A stretch of DNA of 64,000 nucleotides from assembly GCF_056746865.1 (NCBI RefSeq), contig NZ_CM163382.1; one strand, given 5' to 3'. How positions within the stretch are numbered: position 1 is the first letter of the stretch; every line of letters begins with the position of its first letter. Below are positions 15,001 through 18,000 of the stretch, one piece after another. The position numbers were made by a program.

Positions 15001-18000
15001 AGAGTTTCGCGAGCGTATTGTCGAACTGGGTGCGCCGGAGGTGAGTAGTCTTTGGCACCAGCAACAAAAAAATCCGCCTTTCGTCCTCAAACATAATTTG
15101 TATGAGTATTAACCCGCGATTCTGATGACGCTTTTGCTACAATAAAAGCGTTGTTTCACCCTCGGTTATTTTTTCATGTACAAACAAGCTGTTATTCTCC
15201 TGCTGATGCTGTTTACCGCAAGTGTCAGTGCCGCGTTACCTGCCCGTTATATGCAAACCATCGAAAATGCTGCGGTCTGGGCGCAAATTGGCGACAAGAT
15301 GGTGACGGTGGGGAATATTCGGGCCGGACAAATCATTGCCGTGGAGCCCACTGCCGCAAGTTATTACGCATTTAATTTTGGCTTTGGTAAAGGGTTTATC
15401 GATAAAGGTCATCTCGAGCCGGTTCAGGGGCGACAAAAAGTTGAAGATGGTTTGGGTGACCTCAACAAGCCGCTGAGTAATCAGAACTTAATAACCTGGA
15501 AAGATACGCCGGTCTTCAACGCGCCGAGTGCGGGCAGTGCGCCGTTTGGGGTACTGGCGGACAATTTGCGCTACCCAATTTTGCATAAACTGAAAGACAG
15601 GTTAAATCAAACCTGGTATCAGATCCGTATTGGCGATCGACTGGCCTATATCAGCGCGCTGGATGCCCAACCCGATAATGGCCTGCCGGTGCTAACCTAT
15701 CACCATATTCTGCGCGACGAAGAAAATACCCGTTTTCGCCATACTTCGACGACCACCTCGGTACGCGCTTTCAATAACCAGATGGCCTGGCTGCGCGACA
15801 GGGGATACGTGACACTGAGCATGGCGCAACTGGAAGGTTACGTGAAGAATAAGATCAATCTCCCTGCGCGAGCGGTGGTGATTACCTTTGATGATGGCCT
15901 AAAGTCGGTGAGCCGCTATGCGTATCCTGTGTTGAAACAATATGGCATGAAGGCGACGGCGTTTATTGTTACCTCGCGCATCAAACGTCACCCGCAGAAG
16001 TGGGACCCAAAATCGCTGCAATTTATGAGCGTTTCTGAACTTAACGAAATTCGCGATGTATTTGATTTCCAGTCACATACCCATTTTTTGCATCGGGTGG
16101 ATGGTTATCGCCGACCCATATTACTGAGCCGTAGTGAGCACAATATCCTGTTTGATTTTGCACGTTCACGCCGCGCTCTGGCGCAATTTAATCCGCATGT
16201 CTGGTATCTTTCGTATCCGTTTGGCGGATTTAATGACAAAGCCGTGAAGGCAGCAAAAGAAGCCGGATTTCACCTGGCGGTGACAACCATGAAAGGCAAA
16301 GTAAAACCGGGGGATAATCCGTTGTTACTAAAACGACTTTATATCTTAAGAACGGATTCGCTGGAGACAATGTCGCGGCTGGTGAGTAACCAGCCGCAGG
16401 GGTGATTATCAGGCAACCTGTACCGGAATGGCTTTCGCGGTACGTTTCATTTCGTTGTCGCCTTCAAAATAGGCGACGTTGGGCCGCCAGGTGCGAGCTT
16501 CTTCATCTGGCATGGTAACGAAGCTGGCGATGATGACAATATCGCCGACGCTGGCGCAGTGGGCCGCCGCACCGTTAACGGAAATAATTCTCGAACCGCG
16601 TTCTGCCGCGATGGCATAAGTGGAGAAACGCTTGCCGTTGGTGACATTCCAGATATCAATGGCTTCGTTTTCGAGAATACCGGCTGCGTCAAGAAAATCC
16701 TGGTCAATGGCGCAAGAACCTTCATAGTGCAGGTCCGCATGAGTCACTTTCACGCGGTGGAGTTTGCCCTGCAGCATCGTGCGAATCATAACTTCTACCT
16801 TTCTACCCTGTCGTTAACGAAGCAGGCGATGCCTGCTTTGAGGAAATTCTCACGCAGTATTGCCCGATTTTTGTTTAGTGTCTACTCATCTGACGGCATT
16901 TGCATCAGCAGTTTGCGTACCGTGCCGAAGCGTGCCATGTAACGCCTGTAACCAATTGAAATTTCTCTGAACGCTGCTCGGTAAACAATAAAGAGGCGGC
17001 TGACGACGGCGCGCCTTGACTGGATACTGCCTTCACGCAAGACAACACGGAAGGCAGGGAAGATGGATGCACCGAGTACCACACCGCATGACGCGGTATT
17101 TAAACAATTTTTAATGCATGCGGAAACGGCTCGTGACTTTCTGGATATCCATTTGCCAGCGGAACTACGCGAACTGTGTGACCTCGACACGCTGCATCTT
17201 GAGTCGGGGAGTTTTATTGAAGAAAGCCTGAAAGGGCACAGCACTGACGTGCTCTATTCCGTGCAAATGCAGGGTAATCCCGGTTATTTGCATGTGGTGA
17301 TTGAACATCAAAGCAAGCCGGATAAGAAAATGGCCTTTCGCATGATGCGTTATTCTATTGCTGCCATGCACCGGCATCTGGAGGCGGATCACGATAAGCT
17401 GCCGCTGGTGGTGCCGATTCTGTTTTATCAGGGCGAGGCCACACCTTATCCGCTCTCAATGTGCTGGTTTGATATGTTTTACTCGCCGGAGCTGGCGCGA
17501 CGCGTTTACAACAACCCTTTCCCGCTGGTGGATATCACCATCACACCGGATGACGAAATCATGCAGCATCGGCGGATTGCGATTCTCGAACTACTGCAAA
17601 AACATATTCGCCAGCGCGACTTAATGTTATTGCTGGAGCAACTGGTCACGCTGATTGACGAAGGGTACACTAGCGGAAGTCAGTTAGTTGCCATGCAAAA
17701 CTATATGCTGCAACGCGGTCATACTGAACAAGCGGATTTGTTTTATGGTGTGCTGAGAGACAGGGAAACGGGAGGGGAGTCTATGATGACGCTGGCGCAG
17801 TGGTTTGAAGAGAGGGGAAGACAGGAAGGAAGACAGGAGGTAAGACAAGAGGTAAGACAAGAGGTAAGACAAGAGGTAATACAGGAAGTAACACAGGAAG
17901 TAAGTCAGGAATTCGCCCAGCGTCTTCTGAGTAAAGGAATGTCTCGGGAAGACGTTGCAGAGATGGCAAATTTACCCCTTGCCGAGATTGATAAGCTGAT

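What the first reader, a model, noticed from the sequence alone, without database searches (positions are those of the whole stretch)
17825..17908. In-frame 12-bp tandem repeat array (EVRQ-type) in the rpnC tail
Seven consecutive 12-bp units, three of them perfect GAGGTAAGACAA, encode a periodic EGRQ/EVRQ/EVIQ/EVTQ/EVSQ tract. Perfect tandem copies are prone to slipped-strand gain and loss that keeps the reading frame, so this region is likely length-polymorphic between strains and would change the spacing between the nuclease domain and the C-terminal module. My recollection is that K-12 YadD is about 300 aa against 314 aa here, which fits a copy-number difference.
Basis: partly seen in the sequence, partly recalled or inferred. 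Interest (0 to 1): 0.45.

Follow-up and report, generated by a model that had tools for sequence, protein, structure and literature searches.

The report
Known variable repeat in RpnC antitoxin
The 12-base repeat is real and does differ in copy number between E. coli strains, but it is the already published "four-amino-acid repeat" of the RpnC toxin and its nested antitoxin, which sets which antitoxin can silence which nuclease, so this is a correct but not new finding.

Summary
Positions 17825-17908 hold seven in-frame 12-nt units, three of them perfect GAGGTAAGACAA. They sit inside a nine-unit tract (17813-17920) of rpnC/yadD (17063-18007, 314 aa), between panD and panC.

The polymorphism is confirmed. 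In 22 fetched E. coli loci the tract has 3 to 11 units, while the first 240 residues stay at least 97.5% identical. K-12 has 5 units, which explains its 300 aa: 16 fewer in the tract, 2 more at the C-terminus. Strains identical to this window over 3.4 kb of flank carry 2 or 4 copies of the perfect unit instead of 3, so single-unit change is recent.

The repeat therefore lies in both the nuclease (RpnC_L) and its antitoxin.

Zhong et al. 2023 (PNAS) already described these repeats, their between-strain variation, the need for matched repeat numbers in RpnC, and the downstream spare copy rpnC_Ss (here 18076-18291).

Verdict: already known, low interest. One small open point is that rpnC_Ss never matched its neighbour's tract length.

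The parts
17063..18007 (+). rpnC (yadD) full-length ORF, 314 aa: RpnC_L, a PD-(D/E)XK recombination-promoting nuclease (the toxin)
   Evidence: ORF list. TIGR01784 at 280 bits. 100% identical to the annotated rpnC WP_000339900.1 in strain 118UI. It lies between panD and panC, as in K-12.
17081..17683 (+). Nuclease domain (Pfam Transposase_31 / YhgA-like, residues 7-207). The counterparts of the RpnA functional residues are present: D10, D62, E81, Q83, R93 and PDDEI 162-166.
   Evidence: Pfam PF04754 at E 3.3e-87. Motif positions, compared with the RpnA mutagenesis of D11, D63, E82, Q84, R94 and D165 in PMC5350276.
17770..17779 (+). Shine-Dalgarno-like GGGAGGGGAG, which ends 3 nt before the internal start codon
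   Evidence: Sequence. GGGAGGG is invariant in all 20 alleles compared, K-12 included.
17783..18007 (+). Nested in-frame gene for RpnC_S (74 aa, MMTLAQWFEE...), the intragenic antitoxin
   Evidence: ATGATG at codons 241-242 is in frame and invariant in 20 alleles. Expression of RpnC_S from the K-12 allele, which has the identical SD-ATGATG context, is reported in PMC10400941. Expression of this allele was not tested.
17813..17920 (+). Hypervariable four-residue repeat tract, nine 12-nt units (RGRQ EGRQ EVRQ x3 EVIQ EVTQ EVSQ EFAQ).
   Evidence: The tract starts at residue 11 of RpnC_S, within the published 8-20 residue range.
17837..17872 (+). Three perfect copies of GAGGTAAGACAA, the segment that actually varies (2, 3 or 4 copies) on this haplotype
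   Evidence: Synthetic-allele searches. L020 and L021 have identical flanks.
17921..18004 (+). Conserved end of the RpnS domain (RLLSKGMSREDVAEMANLPLAEIDKLIN), a helix-turn-helix-like three-helix part
   Evidence: Invariant columns. AF2 pLDDT is 76-85 here. It superposes on the RpnA_S crystal structure 7TH0 at rmsd 0.9 A over 43 columns with TM 0.85 by target length, but E 1.7.
18076..18291 (+). rpnC_Ss: a stand-alone second copy of the RpnC tail (71 aa) with its own N-terminal extension
   Evidence: ORF. TIGR01784 positions 213-273 at E 2.7e-10. tblastn gives 57% identity to RpnC_S. Annotated 'RpnC/YadD family protein' in some genomes. Described as rpnCSs in PMC10400941.
18131..18163 (+). Second 12-nt array (2.8 perfect copies, KGFQ KGFQ KGY..) inside rpnC_Ss, also copy-number polymorphic
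   Evidence: TRF 100% matches. KGFQ appears x0, x1 or x2 among strains.

Best explanation
The array is the hypervariable 'four-amino-acid repeat' segment of the RpnC C-terminal domain. One stretch of DNA encodes this segment twice: as the tail of the full-length nuclease RpnC_L (314 aa, the toxin), and as most of the first long helix of the nested 74-aa protein RpnC_S (the antitoxin), translated from the internal SD-ATGATG at 17783. Each unit supplies one hydrophobic residue (V, I or F) and three polar or charged ones. Adding or removing a unit therefore changes the length of the helix through which RpnS pairs with itself and with RpnL. Copy number changes by in-frame gain or loss of a DNA-identical 12-nt unit; replication slippage or unequal exchange is the inferred mechanism. 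Because L and S are read from the same DNA, they always change together. Each allele is thus a private, self-matched toxin-antitoxin pair that is insulated from other alleles and paralogs. Shown here: the array, its frame, the conserved internal start, the polymorphism, and the single-unit steps on one haplotype. Taken from the literature, from K-12 RpnC: RpnC_S is made, and it blocks RpnC_L only when repeat numbers match. Inferred: the same holds for this EVRQ-type 9-unit allele, and phage pressure drives the variation.
For: The array is in frame in rpnC. Rpn family membership rests, and the catalytic-residue counterparts are intact. SD + ATGATG is invariant in 20 alleles and in frame. The tract has 3-11 units in 22 loci while residues 1-240 are 234-240/240 identical. 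Different units have expanded in different lineages, always as DNA-identical copies: AAGGGAATTGAG x4 in L006/L008; GAGGTAAGACAG x1, x2, x3 and x4 in L005, L015/L016, L007/L019 and L022; and GAGGTAAGACAA x3 here. The same haplotype exists with 2, 3 and 4 copies and 0-1 mismatch in 3375 flanking bases. The tail superposes on RpnA_S 7TH0. In the AF2 models the long helix has 30 residues in this allele against 18 in K-12. The literature reports 4-aa repeats that vary among strains, RpnC with the most repeats, loss of neutralisation with one extra KGIE unit in RpnC_S or RpnC_LS unless both carry it, and the tract lying in the dimerisation helix (PMC10400941; PMC10400984).
Against: Nothing here shows that RpnC_S is expressed or active for this allele. 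The simple sigma-70 scan found no internal promoter on the + strand. AF2 confidence over the repeat itself is poor (pLDDT below 50 for residues 15-34), and the first Gly-containing units are modelled as coil, so 'one continuous longer helix' is not demonstrated. The Foldseek match to 7TH0 is not statistically significant (E 1.7, rank 32), and sequence search does not reach it. Phage defence has been shown only for the plasmid paralog RpnP2, not for RpnC, and PADLOC has no model for it. The exact 9-unit allele is identical in about 266 genomes, so the change is not rapid. The slippage mechanism is inferred, not measured.
Confidence: 0.85

Rival explanations
1. The tract is a passive, low-complexity linker whose length merely spaces the nuclease domain from a C-terminal module, and the length variation is neutral slippage noise.
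For: The sequence is low-complexity and charged. AF2 gives low confidence over the tract. The allele is stable across about 266 genomes. Alleles from 3 to 11 units all keep an intact ORF.
Against: The tract lies downstream of the conserved internal start and so inside the separately translated domain, not between domains. Every unit keeps one hydrophobic residue at a fixed position. A single-unit mismatch abolishes RpnC_S neutralisation of RpnC_L in K-12 (PMC10400941).
Confidence: 0.08
2. It is a phase-variable contingency locus in which repeat slippage switches RpnC expression on and off.
For: There are perfect tandem copies, and single-unit changes occur between near-identical strains.
Against: The unit is 12 nt, so every change keeps the frame. 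All 23 alleles examined, the window's included, are intact ORFs that end at a homologous stop. The array is in neither a promoter nor a 5' region. About 54 sampled genomes carrying this allele all show the same span.
Confidence: 0.02
3. The array acts at the DNA or RNA level, for example as a protein-binding site array or a regulatory RNA element for rpnC_Ss or panC, and the peptide periodicity is incidental.
For: None is specific. Two 12-nt arrays lie close together, and minus-strand ORFs span the array.
Against: The unit sequences differ completely between lineages (AAGGGAATTGAG against GAGGTAAGACAA), while the peptide pattern of one hydrophobic plus three polar residues and the frame are kept. 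The minus-strand ORFs are mirror images of the repeat with no independent support.
Confidence: 0.02
4. It is a chance similarity or an assembly artefact.
For: None.
Against: The period-12 self-match lies about 21 sd above shuffles. An identical sequence occurs in hundreds of independently assembled complete genomes.
Confidence: 0.01

Closest known systems
Rpn_L/Rpn_S gene-within-gene toxin-antitoxin systems, specifically E. coli RpnC (Zhong et al., PNAS 2023, PMC10400941)
   Same: It is the same gene at the same panD-panC locus, with the same internal SD-ATG start. The four-residue repeat tract begins about 10 residues after the RpnS start. Repeat number varies between strains, and a downstream rpnC_Ss copy is present in some strains.
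   Different: This allele is an EVRQ-type 9-unit tract, whereas the K-12 allele used in the experiments is a 5-unit KGIE/KGIQ type. Its expression and matched-number specificity were not tested. The 2/3/4-copy series on one identical haplotype is not stated in the main text of that paper, and its supplement could not be read.
EcoR124I / EcoR124II type I restriction specificity subunit (HsdS) TAEL repeats, the comparison Zhong et al. themselves cite
   Same: A 12-bp in-frame tandem unit encodes four residues of a helix. Gain of one unit by unequal exchange or slippage changes a specificity without destroying the protein.
   Different: There the helix spaces two DNA-recognition domains, and the change alters the DNA target (N6 to N7 spacer). 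Here the helix is a protein-protein pairing surface between toxin and antitoxin. The proteins are not homologous.
Simple-sequence contingency loci (phase variation) of Neisseria, Haemophilus and Campylobacter
   Same: Tandem repeats inside a gene change copy number by slippage and generate heritable diversity between close relatives.
   Different: Those units (1-5, 7 nt) shift the frame or the promoter spacing and switch genes on and off at high rates. This unit is 12 nt, always stays in frame, and the allele is stable across hundreds of genomes.

Membership tests
Rpn (YhgA-like) recombination-promoting nuclease family | N-terminal transposase_31 / PD-(D/E)XK domain (Pfam PF04754, TIGR01784) | tested here: met
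   PF04754 at E 3.3e-87 over residues 7-207. TIGR01784 at 280.5 bits against a cutoff of 52.1.
Rpn (YhgA-like) recombination-promoting nuclease family | Residues required for RpnA activity (D11, D63, E82, Q84, R94, PDDE D165) are conserved | tested here: met
   D10, D62, E81, Q83, R93 and PDDEI 162-166 are present, against the mutagenesis in PMC5350276. The positions were matched by motif, not by a formal alignment to RpnA.
Rpn (YhgA-like) recombination-promoting nuclease family | Orthology to RpnC: syntenic position between panD and panC | tested here: met
   panD lies at 16409-16789 (-) and panC at 18373-19224 (-), the same order as in BW25113. A match is present in 5424 of 5426 E. coli genomes.
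Rpn_L/Rpn_S intragenic toxin-antitoxin | In-frame internal translation start with a ribosome-binding site upstream of the C-terminal tail | tested here: met
   GGGAGGGGAG-TCT-ATGATG with the ATG at 17783 (codon 241). It is invariant in 20 alleles and identical to K-12. This is sequence evidence only.
Rpn_L/Rpn_S intragenic toxin-antitoxin | The small protein is actually synthesised, from an internal promoter and the internal start | not testable with these tools
   Reported for K-12 RpnC_S by ribosome profiling and tagging (PMC10400941). The consensus promoter scan found nothing on the + strand here, which is uninformative.
Rpn_L/Rpn_S intragenic toxin-antitoxin | The RpnS fold is a compact three-helix bundle with a long first helix (RpnA_S, PDB 7TH0) | tested here: inconclusive
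   The AF2 model's C-terminal part (pLDDT 76-85) superposes on 7TH0 at rmsd 0.9 A with TM 0.85 by target length and probability 0.92. However, E is 1.7 at rank 32 among generic HTH folds, and the sequence search did not reach 7TH0.
Rpn_L/Rpn_S intragenic toxin-antitoxin | Four-residue repeats (one hydrophobic plus three charged or Gly residues) begin 8-20 residues after the RpnS start, and their number varies among strains | tested here: met
   The tract starts at residue 11 of RpnC_S. It has 3-11 units in 22 loci, and 2, 3 or 4 copies occur on one haplotype.
Rpn_L/Rpn_S intragenic toxin-antitoxin | RpnS neutralises RpnL only when repeat numbers match | not testable with these tools
   Shown for K-12 RpnC with and without one KGIE unit (PMC10400941 Fig. 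4D). Not tested for this allele.
Anti-phage defence system | Protects against phage, or matches a curated defence model | tested here: not met
   There was no PADLOC-DB v2 match. The locus sits between core pan genes, not in a defence island. Defence has been shown experimentally only for the plasmid paralog RpnP2. A defence role for RpnC remains an inference.
Phase-variable contingency locus | Repeat-number change shifts the frame or the promoter spacing and switches expression | tested here: not met
   The unit is 12 nt, and all 23 alleles, the window's included, are intact and in frame.

The most novel reading that the evidence does not exclude
The downstream stand-alone copy rpnC_Ss (18076-18291) may not be a spare cognate antitoxin. 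In all 14 Ss-bearing loci examined, its tract length (16-22 aa) differs from that of the adjacent rpnC (12-44 aa). In this window it is 22 aa, or 5.5 units, which is out of four-residue register with every rpnC allele seen. Under the published matching rule it should not pair with its neighbour. It could instead be a recombination donor or 'cassette' that resets or diversifies the rpnC tail. Natural deletion fusions (L018 on this very haplotype, and L012) and hybrid tails (L015, L017) show that such exchange happens. Alternatively it could be a regulator with a different partner.
Probability: 0.15. Interest if true: 0.5.

Novelty: already known. Interest (0 to 1): 0.2.

Why it matters
The repeat decides which antitoxin can silence which Rpn nuclease, so it is the specificity determinant of a widespread gene-within-gene toxin-antitoxin, and probably anti-phage, system. 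That was established in 2023, so this window only adds another natural allele. The modest added value lies in two observations. First, there is a clean natural series on one identical haplotype (2, 3 and 4 copies, 0-1 flank mismatch), which bears on the question the authors left open of how the dodecamers expand and possibly contract. It also provides ready-made allele sets for testing cross-neutralisation. Second, the neighbouring rpnC_Ss was never length-matched to rpnC.

Tried and rejected
- Sequence search of RpnC_S against PDB chains. It did not reach RpnA_S 7TH0 and returned only designed helical repeats and HTH-like proteins. It was therefore not used as evidence.
- PADLOC models. There were no hits, which is uninformative because the 2023 database may predate the Rpn work.
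- Consensus promoter and terminator scan of 16790-18380. It found no + strand promoter upstream of the internal start. The single terminator-like site lies inside rpnC_Ss, and the counts did not exceed shuffles, so no conclusion was drawn.
- AF2 of RpnC_S for this allele and for K-12. The C-terminal part is usable, but the repeat tract has low confidence. The models are consistent with helix lengthening (30 against 18 residues) but do not prove it.
- Supplementary files of Zhong et al.. None are held, so their repeat-number alignments could not be compared with mine.
- Synthetic 1-copy and 5-copy versions of this haplotype. No genome reached 99% identity, so only 2, 3 and 4 copies are documented on this background.
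- Phase variation, a DNA-level element and an artefact were all considered and rejected (see the rival explanations).
- A literature search for work on RpnC after 2023 found nothing further.
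Full report
**1. The observation**

The sequence at 17825-17908 is as described. In the frame of the 314-aa ORF 17063..18007 the units are:
- GAAGGAAGACAG (EGRQ)
- GAGGTAAGACAA x3 (EVRQ)
- GAGGTAATACAG (EVIQ)
- GAAGTAACACAG (EVTQ)
- GAAGTAAGTCAG (EVSQ)

A degenerate unit sits on each side, RGRQ at 17813 and EFAQ at 17909, so the tract has nine units (17813-17920).

Tandem Repeats Finder gives period 12, 7.8 copies, 89% matches and no indels. The period-12 self-match is 65/72, against at most 43 in 200 shuffles (mean 32.9, sd 1.5). 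Only three tandem arrays are found in the whole window, and two of them lie in this locus.

**2. The gene**

The ORF is rpnC (yadD), which lies between panD (16409-16789, minus strand) and panC (18373-19224, minus strand).
- It matches the Rpn family model TIGR01784 at 280 bits.
- It matches Pfam PF04754 over residues 7-207 at E 3e-87.
- It is 100% identical to the annotated rpnC of strain 118UI and many other strains, E. coli 042 among them.
- The counterparts of the residues needed for RpnA activity are present: D10, D62, E81, Q83, R93 and PDDEI 162-166 (compared with PMC5350276).
- A match to the query is present in 5424 of 5426 complete E. coli genomes.

**3.

A Shine-Dalgarno-like GGGAGGGGAG ends three bases before an in-frame ATGATG at 17783 (codons 241-242). 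GGGAGGG plus ATGATG is invariant in all 20 alleles compared, K-12 included.

This is the internal translation start of a gene within the gene. It yields a 74-aa protein, RpnC_S (MMTLAQWFEE-[repeats]-RLLSKGMSREDVAEMANLPLAEIDKLIN). The repeat tract begins at residue 11 of this small protein. The array is therefore part of two proteins at once.

**4. Polymorphism**

I fetched 22 panD-rpnC-panC loci chosen across the similarity ranking.

The tract has 3 units in L009 (290 aa), 4 in L010 and L012, and 5 in K-12/BW25113, O157:H7 and others. It has 7 in L005 and L017, and 8 in L004, L015, L016 and L020. It has 9 in the window, L007, L008, L018 and L019, 10 in L006 and L021, and 11 in L022 (322 aa). 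Meanwhile residues 1-240 are 234-240/240 identical in the 19 loci compared.

I also used the evenly spaced sample of 60 genomes. Unit number was read from the span of each match and checked on 17 fetched hits. The distribution is:

| Units | Genomes (of 60) |
|---|---|
| 3 | 1 |
| 4 | 5 |
| 5 | 38 |
| 7 | 6 |
| 8 | 4 |
| 9 | 5 |
| 10 | 1 |

The values for rows I did not fetch are inferred from span.

Different units have expanded in different lineages, always as DNA-identical copies:
- AAGGGAATTGAG (KGIE) x4 in L006 and L008.
- GAGGTAAGACAG (EVRQ) x1 in L005, x2 in L015/L016, x3 in L007/L019 and x4 in L022.
- GAGGTAAGACAA x3 in the window.

This pattern is what stepwise duplication and deletion of a unit would leave.

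**5. Recent single-unit change**

I built synthetic versions of the window's 411-nt segment with 1, 2, 4 or 5 copies of GAGGTAAGACAA and searched the 5426 genomes.

| Copies | Result |
|---|---|
| 1 | No genome at 99% identity or above |
| 2 | 4 genomes at 100% identity |
| 3 (window form) | About 266 genomes at 99% or above, same span |
| 4 | 6 records at 100% identity (two appear to be the same strain) |
| 5 | No genome at 99% identity or above |

L020 (2 copies) and L021 (4 copies) differ from the window at 1 and 0 of 3375 flanking bases. So one-unit changes have occurred on an otherwise identical haplotype.

Without a tree the direction cannot be assigned. The pattern could be one gain and one loss from 3 copies, two gains or two losses.

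The 9-unit allele is also identical in about 266 genomes, and all of the roughly 54 sampled show the same span. The locus is therefore polymorphic but not hypermutable.

**6. K-12 comparison**

K-12 RpnC is 300 aa. Its tract is KGIE KGIQ QGRQ EVSQ EFAQ, five units. That is 16 residues fewer than here, and its C-terminus is 2 residues longer (..KVINLI), giving the net difference of 14.

**7. Structure**

AF2 models of RpnC_S are only moderately confident: mean pLDDT is 66 for this allele and 74 for K-12. The conserved C-terminal part is modelled at pLDDT 76-85.

By Foldseek that part superposes on the crystal structure of RpnA_S (7TH0) at rmsd 0.9 A over 43 columns, with TM 0.85 by target length. 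However, E is 1.7 at rank 32 among generic helix-turn-helix folds.

The long helix spans 30 residues here against 18 in K-12. This is consistent with EVxQ units lengthening it. The tract itself has pLDDT below 50, and the first Gly-containing units are modelled as coil. I count this as consistent, not as proof.

**8. Comparison with what is known**

Zhong et al. 2023 (PNAS 120:e2307382120, PMC10400941) report the following:
- RpnS blocks the toxic nuclease RpnL.
- Four-residue repeats of one hydrophobic plus three charged or Gly residues begin 8-20 residues after the RpnS start and vary widely in number among strains.
- RpnC has the highest repeat numbers.
- Adding one KGIE unit to RpnC_S or to RpnC_LS abolishes neutralisation unless both carry it.
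- In the RpnA_S crystal structure the insertion point for these repeats lies in the long dimerisation helix.
- Some strains carry a second copy, rpnC_Ss, downstream of rpnC, which can be lost by deletion or fusion.

The accompanying commentary says the same (PMC10400984).

Every element of the present finding is covered there, so it is already known. The authors state that the mechanism of expansion, and possibly contraction, of the dodecamers needs study. The same-haplotype 2/3/4 series above is a small contribution to that point.

**9. Mechanism, with its status**

- Shown here: the array, its frame, the nested start, the polymorphism confined to the tract, and the single-unit steps.
- From the literature, on the K-12 allele: RpnC_S is made, and it neutralises RpnC_L only with a matched repeat number.
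- Inferred: the same holds for this EVRQ-type allele; copy number changes by replication slippage or unequal exchange; phage pressure selects for the variation. Defence has been shown only for the plasmid paralog RpnP2, there is no PADLOC model, and the locus lies among core genes.

**10. The neighbour**

ORF 18076-18291 (71 aa) is rpnC_Ss. It matches the last 61 positions of TIGR01784 and is 57% identical to RpnC_S. Its DNA is 85-93% identical to the rpnC tail on both sides of the tract, including past the stop codon.

It has its own perfect 12-nt array (18131-18163, KGFQ x2), which is also polymorphic (x0, x1 or x2). It is present in 14 of the 22 fetched loci, and in roughly a quarter of the sample.

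In none of those 14 loci does its tract length equal that of the adjacent rpnC. Here it is 22 aa, which is 5.5 units and out of register.

L018, which shares this window's upstream flank and rpnC, repeat array included, and L012 are deletion fusions of rpnC to rpnC_Ss. L015 and L017 have hybrid tails. Under the published matching rule this copy would not neutralise its neighbour. What it does is open (see the novel reading).

**11. Verdict**

The finding is already known, so interest is low (0.2).

Noticed in passing
window 18076-18291 (array 18131-18163): A stand-alone second copy of the RpnC tail (rpnC_Ss, 71 aa) has its own perfect 12-nt array (KGFQ x2), which is also copy-number polymorphic. 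Its tract length never equals that of the adjacent rpnC in the 14 loci that carry it. Here it is 22 aa (5.5 units), out of four-residue register with all rpnC alleles seen.
   Followed up: partly
L018:914-1864 and L012:914-1804 (compare window 17063-18291): These are natural deletion fusions in which the rpnC body is joined to the rpnC_Ss tail (..ATLSLTEVDKLINSN) and the separate small gene is lost. L018 is identical to the window over the 1687 nt upstream of the array. L015 and L017 carry hybrid Ss tails, so the two tail copies exchange sequence.
   Followed up: partly
window 18031-18040 and 18056-18065: An exact 10-nt direct repeat, CCAGATAATT, occurs twice in the AT-rich spacer just upstream of rpnC_Ss (0.07 expected by chance). 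It could be a remnant of the insertion or duplication that created rpnC_Ss, or part of its promoter.
   Followed up: no
window 35809-35856: The only other tandem array in the window (period 18, 2.7 copies) encodes the acidic [17 protein letters not shown] stretch near the N-terminus of the 849-aa ORF 35714-38263. From its sequence I take this to be mrcB/PBP1b, though I did not check its identity with any tool. It may also be length-polymorphic.
   Followed up: no
window 17684-17872 and 17781-17969, minus strand: Two 62-aa minus-strand ORFs with LPVL/SYLL periodic peptides run across the array. They are mirror images of the repeat and have no independent support as genes.
   Followed up: partly
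window 17063-17782 against L001-L019: The query from the rpnC 3' region matches in 5424 of 5426 complete E. coli genomes, and in all 22 fetched loci rpnC lies at the same panD-panC site. Its nuclease domain is at least 97.5% identical across the 19 alleles compared. That is unusual conservation for a proposed defence or toxin gene, and it contrasts with the hypervariable tail.
   Followed up: partly
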